A stretch of 20,000 bases of DNA from an uncultured virus (IMG/VR IMGVR_UViG_3300030107_003727). Taxonomy: Duplodnaviria; Heunggongvirae; Uroviricota; Caudoviricetes. How positions within the stretch are numbered: the stretch's first letter is position 1; each line of letters starts with the position of its first letter. Made by a program: the position numbers and the translations under genes. A model generated the notes under the pieces. That model saw only the letters and a list, made by a program, of their open reading frames with translations. It had not been told where the DNA came from and searched no databases. Of this stretch, positions 3-19,489 are shown piece by piece. The stretch lies in the IMG/VR virus record IMGVR_UViG_3300030107_003727. One strand, given 5' to 3'.

Positions 3-3000
3 AAGATTCGTGCAAAAGCAGAAGCCGACGTACGACAAGAAATAGAAGAAGAAACCAGCGCACAGGCGTGGCTAGACAGAGAAGACTCCGGCCCATCACC
101 ACGGGACAAGGTTGGCCCAAGAACCCCAGTCGAAGGTGTTCCTCCCGCTGAACAAGTTGTTGCTGCTGCCCAAGAGGCTGCCCTGCCTTTGCCAACAGAT
201 CCCGAAGAGGGGACAGATGCTCGTCAGGAGCGGCGAAGCGCCCCAAGGCGGTTTGTTGAACGACTTGTTAAGCGGTACAAAAACGCAGGCAAGGTAAAGG
301 GTGATGTTGTTGAAGCGCCCTCGCAAGAAGCAAAAGATTTGCAAGACGCAATGATGCAAATTGGCGTGCCCGTGGTATTTGTTGAAGGAATGACTGGGGG
401 TGAGGCTGCTGTGCGTGACCGCGACACAGGGGTTATCTTGGTCAACGCAGCAAACTTCTCTGATATTGCAAGTCCTGAAATCAGGAACACTGCAATCTCC
501 GCAGTCGTTGCTCACGAGTTTGTACACACGCTCCAATCAGAACACCCGCAGGCATACGCCGCGTTGACCAAAGCACTTGGTGATGTAAGTCCTGAGTTGT
601 TTATGGAGTCTGCTCGCGCCTTCCTTGTTGACAAAGCGGCAACACGAGCAAGAGAGAAAGGCATCGAGTTGCCCGATCAAGACTTCACTGATTCGGAGTT
701 GATTGATCTCATCAAGAACAACCCAGAGGTTGCTCTTGAGATTGTTCCATACGCGGTGCAAAACCTTGTTGAGAACATTACTGTTGACGCTGAAGGCAAG
801 GTCGGAACAGGCACAAAGAAATACCAGCGCGAAGCACTTGTCAACGCAATGAAAGGTATGCCGCGCAAAGGCTTAAATCGGTTCCTGTTTAGAATGCGAA
901 ACATGTTTACTGCCATGAAGTCAAGCGGAAGTTTGACTCAAGCATGGAAGAGCATGAAGAATTGGGACGCTTTGATTGATGCGTTCGAGATCGCGGCGGC
1001 TGACTTTGGTCAGGTTGGACCGTTGGACACAGAGGGGCCAGTCGGTCCAGACGGCGCTTTGCCGGAAGGTCGCGCGCCACCGCAACTGCCCGAAGGTCGT
1101 GACCCTGCTTTGCCAGAGGGTCGTAGCCCCGCTTTGCCACAAGGGCGCAATCCCGCTTTGCCAGAGGCAGAGACGCTCGAAGAGGCAATCGGTGCTGCAC
1201 TTGAAATTGCTGACTCCACCGAAAGTCTTGATGACATTCGTGAAGAGCGAGTTCGCGGGGCGGAAGGTAGACAGATGCAGTTTGAGTTCCCAGAAGGAAC
1301 TTCATCACATGTGTTTGAGCAACCCGTTGTTGACCCGCCAGTGCAAACTGACCCGCTTGACCGTTCGTCTACACGCGCAAAGCGAAGCCGTGCAAAAGAG
1401 TTGGCTGATCGCAGAAAACAGGTGGGTAAGGCGGCAGCAAACCACGCAAGGCGTTTGGCTAAACAGCGGCGCAAGATTGTGGCAGACAGAATCCTTTCTG
1501 AGCGGGCAGATACAGGGTCTAGCAATCCTCAACATGCCGCAAAAGGCATTGCAAGAAACATTGTTACTGAGTCTATGGATGCGGCGGAACAAGGTTTGCG
1601 CCTGACGCAAGGGCCGCCCACTAAAGCACAGGTTGTTCAGCAAACCATTCGAGACATGCTTGAAGAAGACCCAGAAGGGTATGAGGGCATTCTCCCCGCG
1701 CTTATTAATTACGCAGTTACTGATGGCGGCATGTCTCAGGCCGACGCTGAAGCCTTTGTATTTACTGCTACACAGAAGGGGCATATCAAAGAGGGACAGG
1801 CTGTTTTTGAACAGGGTATGTTCTCTGACTCGGTTGAAGTTGCAGTGAGTATGCGCGGCGACTTTGACCAAGACAATGTTGCCGATGAGGAAGTTGATTA
1901 CGACGCATCCAGAATTCCGCGTAACTGGGAGTCCAGAACCCTACCGACAAGAGACAAAAGTTTTGGGCGTTTGCACAAGAAGTTTGGTCGCCCCAAAATT
2001 ACAGTCACAGGAAGAACCGAAGTCCAGTCCGATAACGCTTACGACCTTATGAGGCAGGCTGCATACGAAGAATTTAACTTGTCCGACAGTGATTTCCAAG
2101 ATTTGTTTGATGAAATACAGAACGGGACTGCGGACCCCCAAGCACAACAGTTGTTTATAGACATCCAAGATGAGTTAGACGTTCACGAAAACTACTACAA
2201 ATCAAGAGTCACAACAGGAACACCCATTGATATTGGCGACTTGGCAAAGGAAGAACTTCCCGATCTTTCGGTGGGTGGTTATCTTGCTGTTGAGGTAGAG
2301 ATTCCTCCACCCGCCGGACATATCCCGCAAAGGGCTATGGATTTGGATTCAAACCAACGCCGAAGAAGGGGATCGCAAGATGAAACTATGCTTGGCCCTC
2401 ATACGCCAAGAGCGCGCGAGTGGTTGGAAAGACAGCCTAACTACATATTGAGAATCGTCATGGACGGTGAAACGGGAGACGGCAGTGTTGGACTTTCGTT
2501 TATGGTCGCTGCTCCGGGCAGTAGAGATATGGATTATGGGCAGCAAATCAATCAGCCCAAAGAGGTCTCGCAATACATTTTCGGCGTTGTAGATCGTGTG
2601 GTCCGTTCTGCTGGTGCAAAAGGATTGTTTGACCGTGGTGGAGCAGCGTTTAGTGGATCAGACAACAACCCTAAGCGGCAAGATTTGTACCGCAGATATG
2701 TGTACCAAGTTGCCGCCGCTTTGCGAAACCGTGGGGTTCGGTCGGCTGTTGTCGAATCCTACAACTTGGCTGGCGGTGGCAGTACATCGGCATTTGTTCT
2801 TCAAGATGAAGATGGCAAGATCAACTCTGGAACCGAACAAGGTACTGCCATTGTCAACAACTTGGAGAGGACGAGACGGACAAACGAAAATGTAATAGAT
2901 GGAATCGAAAACGCAATAAGTTCATTTAGCCAGCCAGACATTCTTCCTGACAACGTGGTTCGTGCTGCTGAAAATGTTGTTCTTGCTTTGACTGACGTTA

Positions 3001-5954
3001 GCCTAATGGCTAATGACCAAACACAACAGGTTTCCAACAACAAGTTCAAGGACCGCACCCCTGAAGAAAGCCGTCAAGACTTTGAAAACCAGATAAATAA
3101 GCACAATGATGTTATTGACAAGATTGATGTTTTAGTCGAAGTTGCGGGTGAAGCAAGGCTGCGAGCATCAGCCAATGGTGACTCTGCGCTTGTGGCGGCA
3201 CTGGATCAATTTGTGGAAGTGAAAGAGAGGGTTCACCTAACTAGGGTTACTTTGGATGTCCCGCCAAGCGCAAAAGTAGACGTTGATGTTAAGTATGACG
3301 CATCCATGATGAACGGGCGGTCGTTGGCTGGACTGTTTAGAAGCCGTGGCGACTTGCCGCCCGGTGTGTTTGACGCAAAGTTCCGCAAAGACTCACGCAT
3401 CCGTGCGGCACAGGATCAGGTCAACTTCCGCGCCTCACAACTTTCGGCTGCTGTATCTGCTGAAGCAAAAGAAGCGGGCATGAGCAAAGAGCAGTTGACG
3501 CAACTGGTTGACTTGGCATTGAAAGATACGCGGATGATGGAAAAGTTGCCATCCAGAACCCGCACCGCTGCGGAAGGGATGCGGAATGACATTGACAAGA
3601 TGACCGACCTGCTGATTGACATTGGTGCAATCTCTGGTGAATTGGCTGTATCTGTTCGAGCAAACAAAGGCTTTTATGTCCACCGATCCTATCGCGTGTT
3701 TGACGACCCTAACTGGGCAAAGAAGGTTCCAAAAGACGTACGAAACAAAATGAAAAGATACCTCATCCGCACTGCTGCGGAAGATGGCAAAAGGATGACT
3801 GATGAAGAGGCAGAAATTATTGTCAAACAACTTTTGCTCAAAGGTGCTGAGTCTGATTCACCAATGGCTATTCTTGCATCGGGTAAAGGTGGCGTTGTTG
3901 CTGATGTATTGAAGCGGCGCAAAAAAATCGCTCCAGAACTTGCCGCCCTATGGGGTGAGTACGACGACCCGAATGTCAACTACGGCAAGTCCATGCAAAA
4001 GATGGCGCAACTTGCTGCAACGTGGCGGTTCACAAATGAAACTGCAAGAGAAGGTTCTGGGTCGTTTATCTTTGACGAAGCACAGGGTGACGCGGTTGTG
4101 CAGTTCCCAACCGACAGGGGCCGGTATGGTGGTCTTGCAGGCAAGTACACCACTCCCGAGTTTATGAACGCTTGGGAGAATGCGCACACTACTGAGACTA
4201 ACACTAGCGCAGTGGCTGGCGTGTATTACCGGGGTGTTGCTGCGGTCAAGTGGGGCAAAACCATTGGTTCGCCAATGACCCATGTTAGGAACATGGTTGG
4301 CAACATTGGCTTTGCTATCGCCAACGGTCATGTTGGGTTGAATAGTGCTGGTGCGGTAGCAGACCTTTGGAACACGATGCCATTCGTCAAGTCATGGAAG
4401 AGCGGAGAGAAAGAGAGGGCGCAGCAGGAGTACAACAGACTTGTTGAACTTGGGGTTGTGCAGGGCGGCAATGTTCAAGACATTATTGACTTGATTGATG
4501 CTGCAAACGAAACGGGCTTGACTGTTCCTGACTTCCTTAAACAGTTGCAGGACAACACTGTTGCTCGTGTTGCTGGCAAATCTGCTGAGGCTTTGATTGA
4601 TGCTGCAAACCGGCTGTACTCGTTTGAAGACGACGCATGGAAAATTTATGCGTTCTCGTTTGAGAAGCAGCGTTATGAAGAGGCTTACACCAAGGCGGGA
4701 CAGCCTGTACCAACAGACCTTGATGAGCGTGTTGCAAAAATAATTAGGGACACTTACCCGAACTACAACATGCCGGGTCGTTTGCTTCGTGGTTTGCGTC
4801 GCACCCCGTTTGTAGGCACGTTTGTGTCATTCCCGTTTGAGGTGCTGCGTACGGGTGTGGAGCGTTTGCGTATTACCCACGGGGAATTGAGCGACCCCGT
4901 ACTTCGCGGTATCGGCATGAAGCGTGCGATGGGACAACTTGTTGCATACAACATGGGCTGGTCATTTGCAAAAACAGTGACTGCACTGTTTGGTATCGAC
5001 GAGGACGAAGTTGATGCACTGCGAGAAATGGTTCCACCGTGGGCGCAAAACTCTCCGCTGATCGTGTACAAAAATGAGAAGGGCCAATACGAGTACATTG
5101 ACATTGGCTACACCGATCCGTTTGCGTACTTTGCAAGACCTGTTTATGCGTTGATGCGTGGAGAGAGTTTCAACGAAGCCATGTTCGGATCTTCGGACGG
5201 CCTGCGTCGTGGTGCTATGGATGAGATTCTTGCACCATTCATTGAAGAAGACATGGTGTTTGGTTCACTTCTTGAGGCTTACAACGGAAAGACCAAGAGT
5301 GGTCGCCCGCTGTACGCTCGTGCAGATAGCCGAATGATAAAAATTCAGAAACTTGCCGAACATATTGCTGGCGACTTTGCACCGGGCGCATACAACCAGT
5401 TGTTCAAAATTCCGATGCGTATTTTGCAGGACAAGACTGATGACTACGGCAATTCCTACAACTGGAGAAGTCACGCTCTGTCAATCGCAACAGGGTTTAA
5501 GCAACAGCCAATTAATCCTGAGCAGGCTTTCTCGTTCCACTGCCGAACCTTTGCCAAAATGGAGATCGAACTTCGTGGTCAGTTGACGCGAGTGGCCGGT
5601 CGTGCAGGCACAGTTGACGACAGCGAGTTAGAGTTTGCGTACAACACCGTGAACGCGGCGCGCGAGCAAAACCTCAGGGGCTTCCAGCGTATCCTGAGGG
5701 CGGCTGATCGTTTGAATATCCCAGAACGCCGCCGCGCAGAGTTGATGTATTCAGCAGGGGTAGCGCGCAAAAATATCCCAGCGTTGATTCGGAACGTACA
5801 CATTCCGGTACAGATCGACTCAGATTTCCTTGAGCGGAATGTGCGAAGATCCAAACTCAACAACCCTGATGCCCCGTTGTCGCAGCGAGATGAAACCAGA
5901 CGGCGCTTGCTCAAACTGCGCGCGCTGCAAAAGGAAGCAACCTCAAGTCGTTAG
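3..5954 (+). CDS. Very large phage protein (5'-truncated, >1980 aa), probable internal virion/ejection or polyvalent protein with a zincin-like HExxH motif
   Basis: The frame of ORF 189..5954 is open back to position 3 (KIRAKAEADVRQ...), so the true start lies upstream of the window. Contains AHEFVH (HExxH, 513-527), an LPEGRxP repeat and a long helical C-terminal region typical of large phage internal proteins. Function is inferred. Confidence 0.7.
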   Translation, partial: KIRAKAEADVRQEIEEETSAQAWLDREDSGPSPRDKVGPRTPVEGVPPAEQVVAAAQEAALPLPTDPEEGTDARQERRSAPRRFVERLVKRYKNAGKVKGDVVEAPSQEAKDLQDAMMQIGVPVVFVEGMTGGEAAVRDRDTGVILVNAANFSDIASPEIRNTAISAVVAHEFVHTLQSEHPQAYAALTKALGDVSPELFMESARAFLVDKAATRAREKGIELPDQDFTDSELIDLIKNNPEVALEIVPYAVQNLVENITVDAEGKVGTGTKKYQREALVNAMKGMPRKGLNRFLFRMRNMFTAMKSSGSLTQAWKSMKNWDALIDAFEIAAADFGQVGPLDTEGPVGPDGALPEGRAPPQLPEGRDPALPEGRSPALPQGRNPALPEAETLEEAIGAALEIADSTESLDDIREERVRGAEGRQMQFEFPEGTSSHVFEQPVVDPPVQTDPLDRSSTRAKRSRAKELADRRKQVGKAAANHARRLAKQRRKIVADRILSERADTGSSNPQHAAKGIARNIVTESMDAAEQGLRLTQGPPTKAQVVQQTIRDMLEEDPEGYEGILPALINYAVTDGGMSQADAEAFVFTATQKGHIKEGQAVFEQGMFSDSVEVAVSMRGDFDQDNVADEEVDYDASRIPRNWESRTLPTRDKSFGRLHKKFGRPKITVTGRTEVQSDNAYDLMRQAAYEEFNLSDSDFQDLFDEIQNGTADPQAQQLFIDIQDELDVHENYYKSRVTTGTPIDIGDLAKEELPDLSVGGYLAVEVEIPPPAGHIPQRAMDLDSNQRRRRGSQDETMLGPHTPRAREWLERQPNYILRIVMDGETGDGSVGLSFMVAAPGSRDMDYGQQINQPKEVSQYIFGVVDRVVRSAGAKGLFDRGGAAFSGSDNNPKRQDLYRRYVYQVAAALRNRGVRSAVVESYNLAGGGSTSAFVLQDEDGKINSGTEQGTAIVNNLERTRRTNENVIDGIENAISSFSQPDILPDNVVRAAENVVLALTDVSLMANDQTQQVSNNKFKDRTPEESRQDFENQINKHNDVIDKIDVLVEVAGEARLRASANGDSALVAALDQFVEVKERVHLTRVTLDVPPSAKVDVDVKYDASMMNGRSLAGLFRSRGDLPPGVFDAKFRKDSRIRAAQDQVNFRASQLSAAVSAEAKEAGMSKEQLTQLVDLALKDTRMMEKLPSRTRTAAEGMRNDIDKMTDLLIDIGAISGELAVSVRANKGFYVHRSYRVFDDPNWAKKVPKDVRNKMKRYLIRTAAEDGKRMTDEEAEIIVKQLLLKGAESDSPMAILASGKGGVVADVLKRRKKIAPELAALWGEYDDPNVNYGKSMQKMAQLAATWRFTNETAREGSGSFIFDEAQGDAVVQFPTDRGRYGGLAGKYTTPEFMNAWENAHTTETNTSAVAGVYYRGVAAVKWGKTIGSPMTHVRNMVGNIGFAIANGHVGLNSAGAVADLWNTMPFVKSWKSGEKERAQQEYNRLVELGVVQGGNVQDIIDLIDAANETGLTVPDFLKQLQDNTVARVAGKSAEALIDAANRLYSFEDDAWKIYAFSFEKQRYEEAYTKAGQPVPTDLDERVAKIIRDTYPNYNMPGRLLRGLRRTPFVGTFVSFPFEVLRTGVERLRITHGELSDPVLRGIGMKRAMGQLVAYNMGWSFAKTVTALFGIDEDEVDALREMVPPWAQNSPLIVYKNEKGQYEYIDIGYTDPFAYFARPVYALMRGESFNEAMFGSSDGLRRGAMDEILAPFIEEDMVFGSLLEAYNGKTKSGRPLYARADSRMIKIQKLAEHIAGDFAPGAYNQLFKIPMRILQDKTDDYGNSYNWRSHALSIATGFKQQPINPEQAFSFHCRTFAKMEIELRGQLTRVAGRAGTVDDSELEFAYNTVNAAREQNLRGFQRILRAADRLNIPERRRAELMYSAGVARKNIPALIRNVHIPVQIDSDFLERNVRRSKLNNPDAPLSQRDETRRRLLKLRALQKEATSSR
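1056..1166 (+). repeat. Intragenic tandem repeat of ~24 bp encoding (A/Q)LP(E/Q)GRxP, about 4.5 copies
   Basis: Protein reads ALPEGRAPPQLPEGRDPALPEGRSPALPQGRNPALPE. The DNA units differ at synonymous positions. Confidence 0.9.
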
Positions 5955-6022
5955 ACCTGAGGTTGCTTCAGCCGGGGGGGTTGTCGCCTCGCCGCACACG
6001 CGGACCTTATTCGAGGCAAACA

Positions 6023-11181: not shown

Positions 11182-11562
11182 ATGGGTAAGTCTCAGCGCG
11201 ACAAAGGCAAGCGGGGAGAACGAGAGGTCGTTGGGATTTTGCGTGGGCTAGGTTTTCCGTCCGCAAGGCGCGCGCGGCAAAGCGACGGCGCAATAGATCC
11301 CGACGTAGCAGGATGCCCAGAGTTATGGGTAGAAGTGAAGCGGCGCAAAAGTATTGCGGCCATGCGCTTCATGGATCAAGCGGTGCAAGATGCAAAAGAC
11401 GGAACAATCCCCGTAGTCTTCATGCGAGAAGACCACGGGGATTGGGTCGTAGCGTTCAGGGTTGAAGATTTTCCCCGCGCCGTTCGGGAGTTCTGGTACA
11501 GATCCTCCGAACCGACGACGGATCCCACGCCTTCCCACGCGGAGCAAAACCATTCCGGTTGA
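11182..11562 (+). CDS. Hjc-like Holliday junction resolvase (PD-(D/E)xK)
   Basis: MGKSQRDKGKRGEREV, DPDV and WVEVKRR motifs. Confidence 0.8.
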   Translation: MGKSQRDKGKRGEREVVGILRGLGFPSARRARQSDGAIDPDVAGCPELWVEVKRRKSIAAMRFMDQAVQDAKDGTIPVVFMREDHGDWVVAFRVEDFPRAVREFWYRSSEPTTDPTPSHAEQNHSG

Positions 11563-12801: not shown

Positions 12802-13215
12802 TCAGTTTTCCTTTTGATAGAAAAAGAATTCGATTTCAGGGTCAGGACGTAGCGTCGGTGGGATTTGCTCCAACACTTCGTCTGGAATGTCAGTGTCGTA
12901 CCCGTCGATGTCGGTCGGGCCAGTGAGCAAAATGTTGCCGATCAGTGGTGCGTTGTAGCCAATGTGGCCAGACAACCAGATGCTCCAGATGTTGACAACA
13001 GAGTTGTCCTTGAGCAAACCCTCGTCGTCAACGTATACGCTCAGGCCAGACTTACCAGCCGGTGCATTTTGGTTGACCGGAACGACAGTGAACACGTCAC
13101 ACCCAAGCAAATCGTAGATGTCTTGGATGTTGTTCTTGCGAATTGACACGACTTGTCGTGTCCCATTGGTGTGCAAAAGCACAGCCTTGGTGGTGTCATC
13201 ATTCTGTTTCGTCAT
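12802..13215 (-). CDS. DUF3846-like phage protein
   Basis: VYVDDEGLLK...N...PLIGNILLTG pattern. Start set at ATG 13215 (MTKQND); 13230 is possible. Confidence 0.7.
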   Translation of the reverse strand: MTKQNDDTTKAVLLHTNGTRQVVSIRKNNIQDIYDLLGCDVFTVVPVNQNAPAGKSGLSVYVDDEGLLKDNSVVNIWSIWLSGHIGYNAPLIGNILLTGPTDIDGYDTDIPDEVLEQIPPTLRPDPEIEFFFYQKEN

Positions 13216-13543
13216 CGTATAGATCCCCATAGTTGACGTTCCATGCTTTGCAAAGTCGGCGCACCATGCGCTCGATTCGCTCAAGCGATTCTGTCTTTTC
13301 TTGTTTCTTCTCTTGCATAGCAAGAGTCGTCCGGCAAGCAGGTCTGGCACGGTATTCAATGCCTCGTCGTTTGCATGCCCTCCGGGTGGTGCTTGGACTT
13401 ACGTCCAAGTTCAACGCATCGCCACATTGTTTCGCAAGAGTCACATGGTGTGGGCGCTCCTCAAGGATTCGTTTGCGCTGCGATTCAATCCACTCGTTGA
13501 TGCGATCTAAGTCGTCATCGGTTTGTTTGCGTCGGGTACTCAT
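13199..13543 (-). CDS. Hypothetical basic protein, possible HTH
   Basis: LAKQCGDALNLDVSPSTTRRACKRRGI resembles a winged HTH. Its start is coupled via TAATG to an upstream small ORF. Confidence 0.65.
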   Translation of the reverse strand: MSTRRKQTDDDLDRINEWIESQRKRILEERPHHVTLAKQCGDALNLDVSPSTTRRACKRRGIEYRARPACRTTLAMQEKKQEKTESLERIERMVRRLCKAWNVNYGDLYDDETE

Positions 13544-13662
13544 TAGCGGTCCTCGTGTCTTTCCACCGTGTCACCGTACACACGGTCGTATCCGTTGATA
13601 TCAAAGATCGTGAGTACGGCTTTCGCCGTACCCACGATCACCTTGAACACAGTCTGTATCAC
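13543..13662 (-). CDS. 39 aa micro-ORF (MIQTVFKVIVGTAKAVLTIFDINGYDRVYGDTVERHEDR), not in the ORF track
   Basis: Fills the gap exactly, with a GTGA overlap at its start and a TAATG overlap at its end. Confidence 0.6.
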   Translation of the reverse strand: MIQTVFKVIVGTAKAVLTIFDINGYDRVYGDTVERHEDR

Positions 13663-14633: not shown

Positions 14634-14687
14634 CTCCCCCGAATCTCTGGGGGTTCATTTCATTACCCCCCCAGATATTCAGGGGAG
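14634..14687. repeat. Intergenic hairpin repeat, copy A (divergent centre)
   Basis: CTCCCC-C-GAAT-C-TCTGGGGG...CCCCCAGA-T-ATTC-A-GGGGAG. Arms are closely similar to copy E, but the centre is TTCATTTCATTAC. Confidence 0.75.
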
Positions 14688-14714
14688 TGTAAGGTGTGGT
14701 TCAACCGTCGTCAA

Positions 14715-15644
14715 TCAGGAACGAACAAGTCCCTTGTTCACAATGGACAAGTAGGCTTCGGTGAGGTCTTGCATGTCCTCGACCGGGGTGAGCATCAGGT
14801 CGTAGCGATCACCGTGGATCTTTTCGTACGCCGCTGAACGCTTGGCTGGTGTGCAAAGCCCTTGCCCCGAGTCCATCTTGAACTTGGCTAAGCCTCGTGG
14901 CATTGGTTGACACCATGACTCGAAGCAAAGCATTCGATAGAACGCTGGGTGACCAAGTGCCATCAACGCTTGCGGATCGACTCGTCGATCAGCAGGCTTG
15001 ACGCAGATGCCTTGTCCAACGGATCGTGTTCCGGAGCCGGTGCAAAATTGGCCACCGTCACCGGTCTGTCCGACCACTGCCTCGATGCGAACGGGGTAGC
15101 CATCGTTCTGTAGTTGCTCCGCAAGAGCAGTGGCTCGGCCCCAACACTCGGCAAACTTTTTACCGTCCGTGGTGCAAACAGCAGAGATGCCAACGCCAAG
15201 CGTCACCAGTGGGTGGAAGGCTTGGTTCTGTTTGCGCCGCCAGTGGTACTCCGTGCCGCTGAGGTAGCGGTCGATCATCGGTGACCCACCACCTGCCGCA
15301 ACGGAGTTGCGTTTCCGTTTTGCATACGTCTTGGTGCGGTTGCCGGTCTTGCCGAGCAAGACCTTAGCGGCCTCCTGCCGCGCCTTGTCGTACCAGTCAC
15401 GAGTGTTTGCATCGGAGCAAACGCCGCATTCAATGTCCGACATGGCATCGGCAAACCGGACACCTCCGGTGTGGAAGCGGTCGCTGAAGTTGGGGTTGCC
15501 CTTCAGGGCATCGGCCCAAACACCGTGGTTGTTGTCTGTGTCAATCGAGAGCGTTCGCTCCTTAGTGACCTTTTGCACGAAGTCATCGACAGAGTCGAAG
15601 TATTCGAGCATGGTGTTTTCGTCGTGCTTTGCTGTGAATTGCAT
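14715..15644 (-). CDS. Putative vWA-like partner of the AAA ATPase (degenerate MIDAS)
   Basis: Directly downstream of a MoxR/CobS-like ATPase. VTLGVGISAVC strand, helix, PVRIEAV strand and GHPAFYRML fit a vWA-like fold, but there is no intact DxSxS. Confidence 0.5.
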   Translation of the reverse strand: MQFTAKHDENTMLEYFDSVDDFVQKVTKERTLSIDTDNNHGVWADALKGNPNFSDRFHTGGVRFADAMSDIECGVCSDANTRDWYDKARQEAAKVLLGKTGNRTKTYAKRKRNSVAAGGGSPMIDRYLSGTEYHWRRKQNQAFHPLVTLGVGISAVCTTDGKKFAECWGRATALAEQLQNDGYPVRIEAVVGQTGDGGQFCTGSGTRSVGQGICVKPADRRVDPQALMALGHPAFYRMLCFESWCQPMPRGLAKFKMDSGQGLCTPAKRSAAYEKIHGDRYDLMLTPVEDMQDLTEAYLSIVNKGLVRS

Positions 15645-15656
15645 GGTGCAAACTCC
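15642..15656 (-). promoter_or_regulatory. Start-associated motif GGAGTTTGCACCATG (copy 1)
   Basis: Exact 15-mer comprising the SD and start codon. Identical copies at 18188-18202 and 18996-19010. Confidence 0.85.
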
Positions 15657-15660
15657 TTAT

Positions 15661-15704
15661 CCCCTCACCTACTGGGGTCGTAGACTCCCCCAGTAGGAGA
15701 GGGG
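15661..15704. repeat. Intergenic hairpin repeat, copy B
   Basis: CCCCTC-A-CCTACTGGGG-TCGTAGACTC-CCCCAGTAGG-A-GAGGGG. Confidence 0.9.
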
Positions 15705-15726
15705 TTGGGTTAGTGGTTGGGTTGGA

Positions 15727-17004
15727 TCACCATGATCCAACCATTGACACGGCCATGTCCAAGTCCGTCTTGGAGAGGTGCTTCCACACCTTCTTGATCT
15801 CCGTAGGAGACCAAAGCCGACACATTCGTCCGACCGTCTCACCGATGGTGAGGCCAGCGGCTCGCCACTTCTCCCATCCCAGACATGTCCGAGTCTGGAT
15901 GGTGCGGGCTGACGAGACCCCTTCGTCTTTGATATTCTTCCTTGCTTTCGCAAGGAGGTCGTACTCGGTGGCAAACGTGCCAAGCAAGACACGCTCCATG
16001 TCCGGGTCGTAGTCAAAGTGAACCATGACACCGAGTTGCTCCCACCGAGCGACGAAGTCGGTTGACTGCCGCTCGGTGTCGTAGACACCTTCGCTGCCGC
16101 CGGGTCCATCCATCGCTGAGTTGCCAGTACCGATGAAGACGAAGTCTTCGTGACGGTGAACCTTGCGGTCCCCAACGTTTACGTTGTCGTCGAAGTTGAC
16201 GAATTGGTTTAGACATGCGGTGCAACCGCTGTCTGCCTTGTCCATCTCGTCAAGGACGAGAACGACTGGCTTGTCGTATGCCCCAGTCACGACCCCTTCC
16301 TTGAAGGTTCCGTCGAGGGTGGGGTTCCCGAGATACTTCTCGGGATAGTCGTTCTTGTTGCAGCCATGGTAAATGTCCTCTCGACCAAGGATTGCAGCGA
16401 CTTGCTTCGCAGCAAACGACTTGCCAGTCCCAGAGGGACCAGCGGCGTAGCACCGACCGAACATCAGAACGCAGGTCAGCATCTCTTCGAGTTGCTTGTG
16501 TGGGTTCTTGATCGTGCCATTGGCAACGGCTTGCTCGATCATCTCCTTTGCCCTAGCAAAGGGGTTGTCGGGGGATTGCTTCAGCAATTCCTGATTGGGT
16601 GGAGGAGGTGGCGTTGGAGCAGGCTGAGGCTGATCCTCTGCCCCAAGGGGCATGTCAAGCGGCTCGCCGCCGAACGATGAGACCAAACGTTCCAAGAACG
16701 TTGGGTCGCCGCCGACCATCTTGAGCCGGTAATGCCGACGTAAGTCGGAAGGATCCCATCCCCGATCCTTGCACTCTTCTTGCAGAAGAGCAGGCCAGTC
16801 ACCAGCAAACCGGTACGAAAGTACCGCTTTGACAGCGTCACCGCCGAACTGCTGAAGCCACATTGATGCACCTTCGTTGCCGTGCTGAAGCAAGAACCTT
16901 GCTTCTGGCATCCGAAGGTAGTTGTAAAGCGAGGACTTCGTCCCCGAACGATTGCAAGCCACCTTGATGCGGTCCCTTGCTTCGGTCAATTCTCGTCGGC
17001 TCAT
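15727..17004 (-). CDS. MoxR/CobS/CbbQ-like AAA+ ATPase with N-terminal extension
   Basis: Walker A GPSGTGKS, Walker B VLVLDEMD, HEDFVFIGTGN sensor and a Pro-rich linker. Start at ATG 17004 has AAGGAG 6 nt upstream. Confidence 0.85.
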   Translation of the reverse strand: MSRRELTEARDRIKVACNRSGTKSSLYNYLRMPEARFLLQHGNEGASMWLQQFGGDAVKAVLSYRFAGDWPALLQEECKDRGWDPSDLRRHYRLKMVGGDPTFLERLVSSFGGEPLDMPLGAEDQPQPAPTPPPPPNQELLKQSPDNPFARAKEMIEQAVANGTIKNPHKQLEEMLTCVLMFGRCYAAGPSGTGKSFAAKQVAAILGREDIYHGCNKNDYPEKYLGNPTLDGTFKEGVVTGAYDKPVVLVLDEMDKADSGCTACLNQFVNFDDNVNVGDRKVHRHEDFVFIGTGNSAMDGPGGSEGVYDTERQSTDFVARWEQLGVMVHFDYDPDMERVLLGTFATEYDLLAKARKNIKDEGVSSARTIQTRTCLGWEKWRAAGLTIGETVGRMCRLWSPTEIKKVWKHLSKTDLDMAVSMVGSW

Positions 17005-17077
17005 GGCCATCTCCTTGCTGCAAAGCAGCGCCAGTTTTACGGCAGCCAACGACCATCGCTGACTTGCCAGTTGCTTT

Positions 17078-17122
17078 CCCCTTTCTCTCAGGGGTCGTAA
17101 GACTCCCCCTGAGATAAAGGGG
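17078..17122. repeat. Intergenic hairpin repeat, copy C
   Basis: CCCCTTT-C-TCTCAGGGG-TCGTAAGACTC-CCCCTGAGA-T-AAAGGGG. Confidence 0.9.
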
Positions 17123-17123
17123 T

Positions 17124-17298
17124 ATTCGGTTCCTTGTGTCCCGCCGTTTGGGGCAGGGACTATTCATTCCCATGACCTGCCTACACTCGCAGCCGCATCC
17201 GGCTGATCCCTTGAGGTCCGGTGCATTCGCAGGCTTGTTCGTGCCATGTCTGGCGAGACTTGATCTCACCCCACACGGCAGGACACAAGAAACCGAAT
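17124..17298 (-). ncRNA. Candidate structured ncRNA (~175 nt rod-like fold)
   Basis: 30 nt terminal arms (17124-17153 and 17269-17298) are complementary at 27/30 positions. Two of the three deviations are G-U pairs on the minus strand. Further internal stems are present and there is no credible ORF. Confidence 0.55.
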
Positions 17299-17315
17299 TG
17301 TCGCCTCGCGGCAAA

Positions 17316-17348
17316 CCCACCACGCAAGGCAGAGCCTCACGCGGTGGG
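17316..17348 (-). terminator. Terminator-like or processing hairpin
   Basis: Minus strand CCCACCGCGTGAGGC-TCT-GCCTTGCGTGGTGGG (15 bp, 3 G-U) followed by TTT, 13 nt after the stop at 17361. Confidence 0.55.
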
Positions 17349-17360
17349 GAGTTTGCACCG

Positions 17361-18011
17361 TCACTGAATGATGGTGTATGGCGTAGCCACTACGCCGGGA
17401 TGATTGTCGAAGTGAAACTTCCCTTCGCGCCACTCGCCACGCTCACAGAAATCCATCTCCACTTCGTGGGTTGGATTGGAGGCGTAGCCGATTTGGTACT
17501 TGCCTTGAGGATCAAGGCAGTTGCCCTCGCCGTCTTCGACGCGCCATCCAACGCACCAATCGAAGAACGAAGAGTCACCGATGCTATCCACCTCGAAGAG
17601 GCGAATATCACCGTAGTTGCCCCGGACATCTCCACCTCGGTGGAGATTGCAAGCGACAACCAAGTTGTCGCAGTACAGCCAATCCCCGGAGTCAACTCCA
17701 CCGTTGGACGACCAATGGTCGTCAATCATGCTTTGGGGAACCCAAAGGGAGAACAGGATTTGCTCCGCAAAGTTGTTCTCGTGGTTGTATGTGTTGTCGG
17801 CTCCAGAGCCGACTCGGACGTACGGCTCGCCTTTGGTCTTTGCAAGCAAAGACGCGACCTCTGCTTCGTCAGAAGCAAAGATGAACCTGTCGCTGTCGTT
17901 GTCTGCCTCGATCTCTCGGTCTGTGACCGAGGTGAGCCACGACTCAGAATCAATGTAAACCTCGGAGAGGTAAGTGTCACCTTCGGTGGTGATGATTTTT
18001 GCTTCGGACAT
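17361..18011 (-). CDS. Acidic hypothetical phage protein (216 aa)
   Basis: Start at ATG 18011 (MSEAKII) is preceded by the motif variant AAGGGTTTGCACC. Contains conserved-looking DNTYNHENN and LHRGGDVRGNY segments. Confidence 0.8.
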   Translation of the reverse strand: MSEAKIITTEGDTYLSEVYIDSESWLTSVTDREIEADNDSDRFIFASDEAEVASLLAKTKGEPYVRVGSGADNTYNHENNFAEQILFSLWVPQSMIDDHWSSNGGVDSGDWLYCDNLVVACNLHRGGDVRGNYGDIRLFEVDSIGDSSFFDWCVGWRVEDGEGNCLDPQGKYQIGYASNPTHEVEMDFCERGEWREGKFHFDNHPGVVATPYTIIQ

Positions 18012-18028
18012 GGTGCAAACCCTTCTGT

Positions 18029-18190
18029 TCAGCAAGGCTGAACGCTGATGATCTCTTCGGTGTCGGTCATCGGCAGATTCTCTGCCGCGACGAACTTGGC
18101 ATCCATGGTGCAATCCGACTGGATTGCCACGGTCATGCTGTGGGTGTGGCCGGTGTCTCGACACCGGACGACGATCTCAAACTCAAACAT
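18029..18190 (-). CDS. 53 aa hypothetical protein (MFEFEIVVRCRDTGHTHSMTVAIQ...), not in the ORF track
   Basis: Begins at an exact GGAGTTTGCACCATG copy (18188-18202) and ends just before the next gene's RBS. Confidence 0.75.
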   Translation of the reverse strand: MFEFEIVVRCRDTGHTHSMTVAIQSDCTMDAKFVAAENLPMTDTEEIISVQPC

Positions 18191-18202
18191 GGTGCAAACT
18201 CC
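18188..18202 (-). promoter_or_regulatory. Start-associated motif GGAGTTTGCACCATG (copy 2)
   Basis: Exact 15-mer. Confidence 0.85.
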
Positions 18203-18572
18203 GTTTGTTGAATAAACAGCCTAACTTGGCAAACTTGCCAAGTCAAGCGAATACCGCTGAGGGGAATTGAACCCCACCAAAGGCTCTAGCCTTTGCCATG
18301 AGCGGCGACCGATCTTCGATCCATGCCAAGCCGTGGCTGGTGCCTACCGCAACGAAGTTGCCATACGCGGCTCCATTTGCTGGTACAGCAAATGTGCAAT
18401 TCACCCTGCTACCGTCGTGCTGCCTCACCTAGTGATTACCAATCACTAGGGACATGGACTCTTTCGCTCGTCTTCGGCTTCGCCGTTTGTCGGCAAGCCT
18501 CGACGCCGTAGCATAGAGGTGTCCGGATCGCTCCAGATCGAATCGGTTTGTCGGGGCCAGTTTGGTTGGTGG

Positions 18573-18624
18573 CCCCCTCCTGAGTAGAGGAGTCGTAAGA
18601 CTTCCTCCTCTACTCAGGAGGGGG
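18573..18624. repeat. Intergenic hairpin repeat, copy D
   Basis: 20 bp perfect inverted repeat CCCCCTCCTGAGTAGAGGAG around TCGTAAGACTTC. Confidence 0.92.
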
Positions 18625-18656
18625 ACAACACCCTTTGGGTGTTGAACCCTTCGTGG

Positions 18657-18998
18657 TCAAGACCTTCTCTGAAGGTCTTGTATGTCCTTTTTGAGGTCAT
18701 CAATGGCCTCAAAAACATGGTCGAGGGCAGAGACTGAGGTCATGGCCAAATCAAATGCTTCCGCATTTGCTTTGTCCAAGATTTCGCATGAGTCTGCAAG
18801 ACTCATCATGTTTTGCTCGTCTTGGTGGTCGGGGCAAGCCGATTTTTCGGCTTGGTCGAGGATGTCCTCGGCTTTAGCCGAGGCATCCGAGGCCCGAATG
18901 ACCTGATTTTCGAGGTCAGTGAGACGTACGATCATTTGCTCTAGCAAATGTTCTGCGGTGAATTTTGGTGGTTGAACTGCTTCGGATGGCTTTGCCAT
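18657..18998 (-). CDS. Hypothetical helical/coiled-coil protein
   Basis: 113 aa ORF starting at an exact start-associated motif. Confidence 0.8.
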   Translation of the reverse strand: MAKPSEAVQPPKFTAEHLLEQMIVRLTDLENQVIRASDASAKAEDILDQAEKSACPDHQDEQNMMSLADSCEILDKANAEAFDLAMTSVSALDHVFEAIDDLKKDIQDLQRRS

Positions 18999-19010
18999 GG
19001 TGCAAACTCC
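18996..19010 (-). promoter_or_regulatory. Start-associated motif GGAGTTTGCACCATG (copy 3)
   Basis: Exact 15-mer. Confidence 0.85.
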
Positions 19011-19064
19011 TGCTGCTTCAGCAGCAAAATGAACTCGACCTCGGCAGCAGCAACTTTGCTGCTA

Positions 19065-19113
19065 CCTCCCATTTCTCTGGGGGTCGTAAGACTCCCCCCA
19101 GATAAATGGGAGG
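19065..19113. repeat. Intergenic hairpin repeat, copy E
   Basis: CCTCCCATTT-C-TCTGGGGG-TCGTAAGACTC-CCCCCAGA-T-AAATGGGAGG. Confidence 0.9.
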
Positions 19114-19489
19114 GTGAACCCCTTTAGGGGTTCAAGGTTGGCTGGGCTAACCTTGCTCCGATCCGACAGTTAGTTAGTCCACGCTGAGGGTTTGCAGTGC
19201 AAACCCCGTGCCGACTCATGGGGCTTCCCATGGGGTTTAGATACGATCTAAACCTGTGCGAAGCCTTGCGTACGCGCGCGCGAGCATTTTGCTCTGCAAA
19301 ATGGCCAACCGAACACTTGGCCAACGCTTTTTCAGCCCCTGTAAGGGGCTGGCCATCGGTTTTTGCTGCGGTTGTCTTGATCTGGCAAAGCCAGATCCAC
19401 ACCCCTACCCTCACTACATATTACATATCCCACGCAAATACACGGTGGATTTTGGAGTGTTAAGTTAGGTAAGACCCGATGATGGGGTT

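What the first reader, a model, noticed from the sequence alone, without database searches (positions are those of the whole stretch)
14634..19113. Family of five long intergenic hairpins with variable stems and a conserved GTCGTA(A)GACT core, punctuating the accessory gene array
Seen: hairpins at 14634-14687, 15661-15704, 17078-17122, 18573-18624 and 19065-19113, all between genes. Outer stems of about 16-20 bp differ in sequence but keep pairing. Four copies share an apical GTC-GTA(A)-GAC mini-stem offset from the outer stem by a 3-4 nt one-sided bulge (GGA/GGAA on the minus strand). Copies A, C and E share the same C/T mismatch, and none has a clear U-tract. Known analogues are T7 early RNase III sites, N4 hairpin promoters, T4-type PeSL shuffling cassettes and integron attC sites, none of which I can match exactly. 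Inference: a structure-recognised signal, either RNA processing/protein-binding sites or folded-ssDNA recombination sites that delimit exchangeable gene cassettes.
Basis: partly seen in the sequence, partly recalled or inferred. Interest (0 to 1): 0.88.

Follow-up and report, generated by a model that had tools for sequence, protein, structure and literature searches.

The report
Fixed-tip RNA hairpins between phage genes
Five long hairpins between the accessory genes of an uncultured marine phage belong to an uncatalogued family found in otherwise unrelated phages, with freely varying stems and a nearly fixed tip, so some unknown factor probably reads that tip on the messenger RNA.

Summary
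Five hairpins sit at the stated coordinates, against about 0.1 hairpins of 12 or more pairs per shuffled window. All five lie between genes of one leftward operon. On the mRNA-sense (minus) strand, four share the apex GGGG-GA-GUCUUAC-GA-CCCC. I read this as tandem G.A pairs, a 2-bp mini-stem and a small loop. Copy A is a divergent member.

A covariance model finds exactly these five in the window, five in a 91%-identical phage, and two to four per contig in other marine phage contigs. Those other phages share almost no proteins with this one. Stems covary strongly, and 20 of 28 have a helix defect 9-13 bp below the apex.

The elements are co-oriented with genes in a stop, hairpin, Shine-Dalgarno, start order. 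None has a U-tract. No phage RNA polymerase or tyrosine recombinase was found, and there is no Rfam match.

Best reading, confidence 0.45: intercistronic RNA signals that a loop-specific factor reads to process or stabilise early mRNA. One hairpin plus its start-associated sequence precedes at least four different genes in relatives, so it also marks mosaic junctions in the manner of PeSL cassettes. An attC-like ssDNA mechanism is not supported. I class it as a new variant of a known kind.

The parts
19065..19113 (-). Hairpin E. It has 19-bp arms with one A.G mismatch 9 pairs below the apex, and apex GAGUCUUACGA. It is the first element of the leftward operon, about 66 nt upstream of the start at 18998.
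   Evidence: Family model 68.5 bits and 67.9 bits.
18573..18624 (-). Hairpin D. It has a perfect 20-bp stem, extendable to 18570-18627, and apex GAAGUCUUACGA with one extra A. A 382-nt structured non-coding stretch follows it.
   Evidence: Family model 51.3 bits and 57 bits.
17078..17122 (-). Hairpin C. It has a 17-bp stem with an A.G mismatch 10 pairs below the apex, and lies about 70 nt upstream of the AAA_5 ATPase gene.
   Evidence: Family model 64.3 bits and 69.3 bits.
15661..15704 (-). Hairpin B. It has a 17-bp stem with a U.U mismatch 11 pairs below the apex, and apex GAGUCUACGA, 1 nt shorter than usual. The start-associated sequence and ATG of the DUF7192 gene follow at once.
   Evidence: Family model 59.4 bits and 69.8 bits.
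14634..14687 (-). Hairpin A, a divergent member. It has a 20-bp stem with a G.U pair and an A.G mismatch, and a different 14-nt loop.
   Evidence: Family model 26.5 bits, E 3e-5, and 26.7 bits. The copy is conserved in G001.
15642..15656 (-). Start-associated sequence GGAGUUUGCACCAUG (Shine-Dalgarno, fixed spacer, ATG) directly after hairpin B. The same 15-mer, with 0-2 mismatches, also stands at 18009-18023, 18188-18202 and 18996-19010.
   Evidence: 7 matches against 0.86 expected, four of them at gene starts. One search shows it conserved together with the hairpin in relatives.
18626..18644 (-). Small 8-bp hairpin between the stop of gene 18657-18998 and hairpin D. A similar one (19116-19133) stands just upstream of E.
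   Evidence: Read.

Best explanation
The five hairpins are cis-acting RNA elements in the polycistronic transcript of the phage's leftward early/accessory operon. Each is a 16-25 bp helix of arbitrary sequence. Most have a helix defect about one turn (9-13 bp) below a nearly invariant cap: tandem G.A pairs, a G-C/U-A mini-stem and a 3-4 nt pyrimidine-rich loop. A trans-acting factor recognises that cap. The factor is probably of the host, because the phages that carry the element share almost no proteins. I infer that binding directs endonucleolytic processing and/or protects the flanking cistrons from exonucleases. Single-gene segments of the early mRNA would thereby get their own stability and translation. 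This works like the RNase III sites of T7 early mRNA, but with a loop-specific determinant. As a by-product, the conserved hairpin plus start-associated sequence offers short homology at gene junctions where genes are exchanged between phages. Shown: the structure, its conservation, its strand specificity, its intercistronic placement and the mosaic junctions. Inferred: that RNA is the active form, that a factor reads the apex, and that the outcome is processing or stabilisation.
For: 1. The hairpins are real and far beyond chance.
2. Family model R1 finds only these five loci in the window. It finds five syntenic ones in G001, three in G002, two in G003 and one in G005, and further copies in marine metagenome contigs. 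The refined model R2, run with filters off, again finds exactly five in the window.
3. Covariation is strong. On 33 distinct sequences, 88.3% of cells pair, 16 of 21 pairs change on both sides, and the covariation score is 0.566. Shuffles give 0.168 and 0 of 500 reach the observed score. Slid registers give at most 0.19 (that alignment is fitted to the model). The independent MAFFT alignment gives 17 of 23 pairs and 0 of 500 shuffles. Orthologous copies in 91%-identical genomes differ by compensated changes: E has two double substitutions plus a paired insertion, and D and C have one each.
4. The apex is invariant or varies compatibly. The variant GA-GCGAAGC-GA turns U-A into C-G, and the variants GUUCU(U/A)AC also occur.
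5. The element is strand-specific. Of 27 non-redundant copies, 22 have a Shine-Dalgarno, start and ORF of 50 or more codons within 90 nt downstream on the apex-sense strand. Only 4 have this on the other strand. An ORF stop lies within 60 nt upstream in 20 on the sense strand against 10 on the other.
6. The sense strand folds better as RNA in 29 of 31 copies, by a mean of -2.7 kcal/mol. Much of this comes from the shared apex, so the copies are not independent.
7. No mismatch falls in pairs 1-8 below the apex. Twenty of 28 copies have a defect at pairs 9-13, most often A.G.
8. Carriers G001/window, G002, G003 and G005 share only a helicase and one small protein at blastp E<=1e-3.
9. E lies in the operon leader next to a divergent intergenic region. 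B lies 16 nt before its ATG, so it must be transcribed through.
Against: No RNA data exist, so neither cleavage nor RNA ends are shown. The G.U versus A.C count in stems does not decide the strand: 6 sense wobbles against 4 antisense. The G005 copy lies antisense to its flanking genes. Bacterial RNase III is not known to read loops (recalled), so a plain RNase III model leaves the conserved apex unexplained. No candidate reader protein was identified, and no copy was found in the bacterial genome loci examined. Eight of 28 copies have no helix defect. Compensatory change preserves a DNA cruciform as well as it preserves an RNA hairpin.
Confidence: 0.45

Rival explanations
1. The hairpins are factor-dependent or regulated transcription stop or anti-stop signals. 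Each would pause or terminate host RNA polymerase without a U-tract, or load an antitermination factor through its apex, and so time the expression of successive early genes.
For: They are strong GC-clamped hairpins between co-directional genes. The first stands in the operon leader, where nut-type sites stand in lambdoid phages (recalled). As I recall it, the pyrimidine-rich loop resembles the core of boxA elements; this is a lead and was not tested. The conserved apex fits recognition by a factor.
Against: None has a U-tract, while two terminator-like hairpins with T-rich tails exist elsewhere on the same strand (13639-13606 and 18248-18219). Processive antitermination needs one site per operon, not five (recalled). 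B ends 16 nt before its gene's ATG with no room for a new promoter. The variant apex GCGAAGC lacks the pyrimidine run.
Confidence: 0.2
2. The hairpins are translational operators. A protein bound to the apex would control ribosome access to the Shine-Dalgarno sequence that follows within about 3-70 nt, together with the start-associated sequence.
For: Twenty-two of 27 copies are followed closely by a Shine-Dalgarno and start. B-type copies sit 3 nt before the Shine-Dalgarno and are conserved as one block with the start-associated sequence. Cluster K mycobacteriophages show an analogous pairing of inverted repeats with start-associated sequences, of unknown function.
Against: The hairpins do not contain the Shine-Dalgarno or the start codon. 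The distance to the start varies from 13 to about 380 nt in the window. D is followed by non-coding RNA, not by a gene. Two of the four start-associated sequences have no family hairpin directly upstream (18009-18023 and 18188-18202).
Confidence: 0.15
3. The hairpins work at the DNA level. Extruded cruciforms or folded single strands would serve as recombination sites (attC-like) or simply as conserved junction homology that shuffles gene cassettes, with no RNA role.
For: The B-type hairpin plus start-associated sequence is a homology island before at least four different genes. In relatives the gene between E and D is replaced, by 396 other letters in one contig. A 168-176 nt segment beside C is absent. 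The phage encodes an exonuclease VIII-like nuclease and a serine recombinase.
Against: Breakpoints lie 9-80 nt from the hairpins, not at them. The conserved part is the asymmetric apex, not the stem bases where attC sites carry their core sites (recalled). No tyrosine recombinase was found. Strict co-orientation with genes and strong selection on an 11-nt loop across unrelated phages are not needed for mere homology.
Confidence: 0.12
4. The hairpins are promoters for a virion-carried RNA polymerase, as in N4.
For: Hairpins stand immediately upstream of early genes. The phage carries a giant (2875 aa in G001) virion protein of mostly unknown function.
Against: Pfam, PHROGs and PDB sequence searches of the giant protein and the other large ORFs found no RNA polymerase domain. 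The giant protein has no D.D.D-type motif, only HExxH. Stems of 16-25 bp are far longer than the 5-7 bp recalled for N4. The sense-strand apex, not a template-strand loop, is the better-folded form.
Confidence: 0.03

Closest known systems
RNase III processing sites of the T7-group early region (recalled; no paper read here)
   Same: Both are several similar hairpins between genes of one early polycistronic transcript. Both have about two helical turns with an internal defect and no U-tract, and they are thought to give each cistron a protected end.
   Different: Here the stems differ freely and the apical loop is the conserved part. The family spans phages with no detectable protein similarity. 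Cleavage is untested, and the host and its RNase III are unknown.
PeSL (promoter-early stem-loop) cassettes of T4-type phages. PMC4122927: abstract read. PMC2839356: search listing only.
   Same: Both are repeated intergenic motifs in variable regions of small accessory genes, at the borders of gene replacements between relatives. The B-type hairpin plus start-associated sequence precedes at least four different genes.
   Different: No promoter consensus accompanies the hairpins. The promoter-like hits equal the chance expectation, and no shared upstream motif is visible. The shared sequence is about 19 nt of apex, or about 75 nt for one subtype. The stems are not conserved among copies.
SAS/ESAS of Cluster K mycobacteriophages. 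PMC3203893: abstract and passages read.
   Same: Both have a fixed sequence at the translation start of a subset of non-structural genes. About half of those sites are preceded by roughly 17-bp inverted repeats with a 4-13 bp spacer. Both are in one orientation, and the function is unknown.
   Different: In ESAS the inverted repeats have a consensus and the spacer varies. Here the arms vary and the spacer (apex) is fixed. The host phylum and the sequences differ.
Integron attC sites (recalled)
   Same: Both are imperfect palindromes after each gene of an array, conserved in structure rather than in sequence.
   Different: No conserved core sites stand at the stem bases and no integron integrase was found. 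The breakpoints are not at the hairpins. The conserved element is the loop.
Fixed-loop gene-end hairpins of a Streptomyces phage
   Same: Both have variable stems and an invariant short loop, with many copies among small accessory genes. In both cases an unknown loop reader was proposed.
   Different: The loop sequence, the host and the placement (gene ends there) all differ. I did not examine that locus.

Membership tests
T7-type RNase III processing sites | Located between cistrons of a polycistronic early transcript and co-oriented with it | tested here: met
   All five lie between minus-strand genes. Twenty-two of 27 copies have a sense-strand start downstream, against 4 antisense.
T7-type RNase III processing sites | About two turns of double-stranded RNA interrupted by an internal loop or mismatch | tested here: inconclusive
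   Stems are 16-25 bp. Twenty of 28 copies have a defect at pairs 9-13, and 8 of 28 have none.
T7-type RNase III processing sites | Cleaved by host RNase III | not testable with these tools
   This needs in vitro cleavage or RNA end mapping.
Intrinsic (rho-independent) terminators | GC-rich hairpin followed directly by a U-tract | tested here: not met
   None of the five has a T-run after the stem on either strand. The terminator scan lists other hairpins on the sense strand, but no complete family hairpin on either strand.
PeSL cassettes | An early sigma-70-type promoter joined to the stem-loop | tested here: not met
   Four promoter-like sites were found in 9 kb against 3.9 expected. No shared motif appears upstream of the five.
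PeSL cassettes | Copies mark the borders of gene insertions, deletions and replacements between relatives | tested here: inconclusive
   A homology island precedes at least four different genes. Breakpoints lie 9-80 nt from hairpins C, D and E. Only a few cases were examined.
Integron attC | Conserved core sites at the two ends of the palindrome and extrahelical bases | tested here: not met
   The stem bases are variable C-rich/G-rich clamps, and the conserved part is the apex.
Integron attC | An integron-type tyrosine recombinase nearby | tested here: not met
   Only a serine recombinase (PF00239) was found in the window. G001's remaining ORFs were scanned only against PHROGs, plus Pfam for six large ORFs, and gave no integrase hit.
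N4-type hairpin promoters | Short hairpin (5-7 bp stem, 3-nt loop; recalled) read by a virion RNA polymerase | tested here: not met
   Stems are 16-25 bp. No polymerase domain was found.
REP/BIME-type repeats | Conserved stem sequence, many chromosomal copies | tested here: not met
   Stems differ between copies. None of the 100 bacterial or archaeal loci that carry the 14-mer holds a full element.
Any Rfam 15 family | Score at or near a family's gathering threshold | tested here: not met
   The only hit on a hairpin is mir-627, at 24.4 bits against a gathering score of 86, E 0.19.

The most novel reading that the evidence does not exclude
A so far unknown loop-specific double-strand RNA endonuclease or RNA-binding factor of marine bacteria reads a GA-capped hairpin tip and acts one helical turn below it. 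This would be a bacterial counterpart of the loop-measuring RNase III of yeast. Unrelated phages would have independently kept or acquired this tip to cut their early operons into single-gene messages, and the same module would travel between phages as a portable gene junction.
Probability: 0.2. Interest if true: 0.8.

Novelty: new variant of a known kind. Interest (0 to 1): 0.62.

Why it matters
Almost nothing is known about how uncultured marine phages organise early gene expression. This RNA motif has strong covariation and a nearly invariant 11-nt cap, and it is shared by phage lineages with no detectable protein similarity. That makes it a concrete handle. It predicts a specific reader factor that could be fished out with the RNA. 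It gives a covariance model for annotating early operons in viromes. It also offers a testable case of regulatory hairpins doubling as junctions for gene shuffling outside the T4 group.

Tried and rejected
- **Rfam:** the scan of the whole window at E<=1 gave only two chance-level hits.
- **tRNA/tmRNA:** ARAGORN found none.
- **Deposited phages:** megablast of the window gave no match. blastn of the 33-nt upper hairpin at E<=10 gave no match.
- **Paper search with the apex letters:** 12 papers, all primers or coding sequence. The T7 paper holds a piece of gene 1. A word search for conserved intergenic stem-loops in phages found nothing relevant.
- **Sequencing runs:** no RNA holder was listed. 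Only DNA contigs could be laid, so no RNA ends are available.
- **Whole genome:** none is held for the window.
- **Strand test:** the G.U against A.C count gave 6 against 4 and is undecided.
- **Apex partner:** a search for a partner complementary to the apex on the sense strand found none.
- **Sixth copy:** the hairpin at 5934-5969 has a similar tip but is not found by either model.
- **Pattern matches:** most 14-mer and some 16-mer matches in the collections are chance matches without a stem.
- **First gene-context scripts:** two were too strict or too noisy and were replaced.
- **Earlier notes of this scan:** none exist for this genome or sequence.
- **Host:** it was not identified.


Full report
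**The window.** The window is part of an uncultured marine phage. It holds the 3' two-thirds of a giant virion protein gene and a set of replication and recombination genes: exonuclease VIII-like, helicase, Toprim primase, two PD-(D/E)XK nucleases and a serine recombinase. From about 19100 down to about 13600 on the minus strand runs a row of accessory genes. These include Sir2, DUF3846, an AAA_5 ATPase, DUF7192 and several ORFs with no family. No whole genome is held. The nearest record is the 44.6-kb virus contig G001, about 80-92% identical depending on the segment, in the opposite orientation and called complete. No deposited phage matches at the DNA level. The DNA occurs in marine and seawater metagenome runs.

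**The observation.** Each folds as a single long helix on either strand. The window holds 9 hairpins with 12 or more pairs, against a mean of 0.1 in 40 dinucleotide-preserving shuffles. Four copies (B to E) share the core, and A has another loop. The C/T mismatch of A, C and E is real. No copy has a T-run behind it.

**Anatomy.**
- On the minus strand, which is the sense strand of the flanking genes, the common apex reads GGGG-GA-GUCUUAC-GA-CCCC.
- Minimum-free-energy folds pair G with C and U with A inside the loop and leave GA opposite GA. I read these as tandem G.A pairs. That is an inference, because the folds only show them unpaired.
- Natural variants fit this reading: GA-GCGAAGC-GA (U-A becomes C-G), GA-GUUCUUAC-GA, GA-GUUCUAC-GA, GA-GUUCUAAC-GA, GA-GUCUAC-GA (copy B) and GAA-GUCUUAC-GA (copy D).
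- In 28 distinct copies no mismatch falls in the first 8 pairs below the apex. Eighteen mismatches fall at pairs 9-13. In all, 20 of 28 copies have a mismatch, bulge or internal loop there, most often A opposite G. Eight copies have none.
- The 5' arms are pyrimidine-rich and start with a C-run. The 3' arms end with a G-run.

**The family.**
- The 16-nt core occurs in 11 virus contigs and in 90 metagenome stretches. Many pattern matches are chance matches without a stem.
- Covariance model R1, built from 13 copies, finds the five loci in the window and nothing else. It finds five syntenic loci in G001, three in G002, two in G003 and one in G005.
- It also finds two to four copies per contig in several metagenome contigs, spaced about 0.4-1.4 kb apart.
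- A second model, built from 37 matches and run with filters off, again gives exactly five loci in the window. Four score 57-70 bits and A scores 26.7 bits.
- None of the 100 bacterial or archaeal loci that carry the 14-mer holds a full element.
- Rfam 15 has no such family.

**Covariation.** On the MAFFT alignment of 13 copies, 17 of 23 pairs change on both sides and 0 of 500 shuffles reach the observed covariation score. On 33 distinct model-aligned copies, 88.3% of cells pair and 16 of 21 pairs change on both sides. The score is 0.566, against 0.168 in shuffles and at most 0.19 in slid registers. That alignment leans towards the model. Between the window and its close relatives the orthologous stems differ by compensated changes. 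E has two double substitutions, a paired G-C insertion and a repaired mismatch. D has one A-U to U-A swap, and C has one A-U to G-C change.

**Strand and context.**
- I started from 39 copies and dropped 12 near-duplicates. These were the five G001 copies and seven from contigs nearly identical to ones kept.
- Of the remaining 27, 22 have a Shine-Dalgarno, start codon and ORF of at least 50 codons within 90 nt downstream on the apex-sense strand. Four have this on the other strand.
- Twenty have an ORF stop within 60 nt upstream on the sense strand, against 10 on the other.
- The G005 copy is an exception. It lies antisense between two genes.
- In the three complete carriers the copies cluster in the first few kilobases of an operon of small genes that leaves a divergent intergenic region.
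- In the window, E stands in that leader, and B ends 16 nt before its ATG.
- The sense strand folds better as RNA in 29 of 31 copies. This largely reflects the shared apex.
- The wobble count, 6 against 4, does not decide the strand.

**What it is not.**
- It is not an intrinsic terminator. No copy has a U-tract, while two terminator-like hairpins with T-rich tails lie elsewhere on the same strand.
- It is not a PeSL in the strict sense, because no promoter motif accompanies it.
- It is not attC-like. The ends are not conserved, there is no tyrosine recombinase, and the breakpoints are not at the hairpins.
- It is not an N4-type promoter. No RNA polymerase was detected in the window or in G001, including the 2875-aa virion protein, which only shows an HExxH motif and a virion-protein PHROG.

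**Mosaic junctions.**
- Compared with G001 and with contigs of other runs, the gene between E and D (18657-18998) is replaced. One contig carries 396 other letters in its place. The conserved flanks end 13 nt inside the ORF and just after its stop.
- A 168-176 nt segment beside C is absent in relatives, with breakpoints 0-9 nt from the stem base.
- A block of about 75 nt, made of the B-type hairpin plus the sequence AUAAGGAG(A)UUUGC, is conserved between the window and four more distant contigs. Homology stops at the start codon, and four different coding sequences follow.
- One of those sequences is a relative of the window's 216-aa gene, which in the window stands elsewhere.
- This is the behaviour described for PeSLs (abstract). 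It also resembles the pairing of start-associated sequences with inverted repeats in Cluster K mycobacteriophages (passages).

**Who reads the apex.** The carriers G001/window, G002, G003 and G005 share only a helicase and one small protein at blastp E<=1e-3. A common phage-encoded reader is therefore not evident, and a host factor is the simpler assumption. Three carriers do have an AAA_5 ATPase with a VWA-like or DUF7192 partner downstream of a copy. I cannot interpret this.

**Mechanism.** I think intercistronic RNA signals read at the apex are the most likely explanation, acting in processing and/or stabilisation of early mRNA segments (0.45). The rivals are regulated termination or antitermination (0.2), translational operators (0.15), DNA-level recombination or mere junction homology (0.12) and hairpin promoters (0.03). 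That the elements act as RNA at all I hold at about 0.7.

**Novelty and limits.** I found no catalogued RNA family and no paper with this motif. Comparable fixed-loop, variable-stem hairpins have been noted by this scan in another phage (unchecked). The kind of element, repeated regulatory hairpins in phage early regions, is known. This family, its GA-capped apex and its spread across unrelated marine phages appear to be new.

The limits are these:
- No RNA data are available.
- The host is unknown.
- The statements about T7 RNase III sites, N4 promoters, attC, lambda nut sites and yeast RNase III are recalled, not read here.

Noticed in passing
window 15642-15656, 18009-18023, 18188-18202, 18996-19010 (minus strand); 19189-19208: Four gene starts share GGAGTTTGCACCATG with 0-2 mismatches (7 matches against 0.86 expected). 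A palindrome built from the same TTTGCA word lies in the divergent intergenic region upstream of E. It may be an operator or a translational signal.
   Followed up: partly
window 17126-17298: A segment of about 170 nt directly beside hairpin C is closed by a roughly 24-bp stem and is highly structured (-97.6 kcal/mol, z -7.1). It is absent from G001 and from contigs of two other runs. It may be a small mobile element or a structured RNA.
   Followed up: partly
window 18191-18572 (minus strand): A 382-nt stretch without a convincing ORF lies between hairpin D and the next gene. It is strongly structured (z -5.0), contains a tRNA-like T-arm and acceptor-like pairing, and ends in a terminator-like hairpin (18248-18219). 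ARAGORN and Rfam find nothing.
   Followed up: partly
window 11405-11444: A 17-bp inverted repeat lies just beyond the 3' end of the serine recombinase gene and is conserved in G001 (27812-27851). It could be a recombination site or a two-way terminator.
   Followed up: no
window 5934-5969: A 16-bp hairpin at the convergent end of the giant gene has a minus-strand tip GTCTAACGAC, one letter from the family core. Neither family model reports it.
   Followed up: partly
window 3-5954; L364:303-8930 (G001): The giant virion protein (2875 aa in G001) has an HExxH motif. Its C-terminal third resembles virion proteins of Cellulophaga, Pelagibacter and Pseudoalteromonas phages. No Pfam or PDB sequence match was found.
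   Followed up: partly
window 15727-17007 and 14715-15644; L266:5750-6982 and 4275-5798; L262:17221-19134: In three phages that otherwise share almost no proteins, a copy of the hairpin stands in an operon with an AAA_5 (MoxR/CobS-like) ATPase and/or a VWA-like, CobT-like or DUF7192 partner.
   Followed up: no
L272:4318-4389 (G005): This copy has AT-rich stems and lies antisense between a VRR-NUC gene and a primase-helicase gene. It is the one clear exception to co-orientation.
   Followed up: no
window 13199-13543: This 114-aa gene is replaced by unrelated sequence in G001. It lies next to a terminator-like hairpin at 13606-13639.
   Followed up: no
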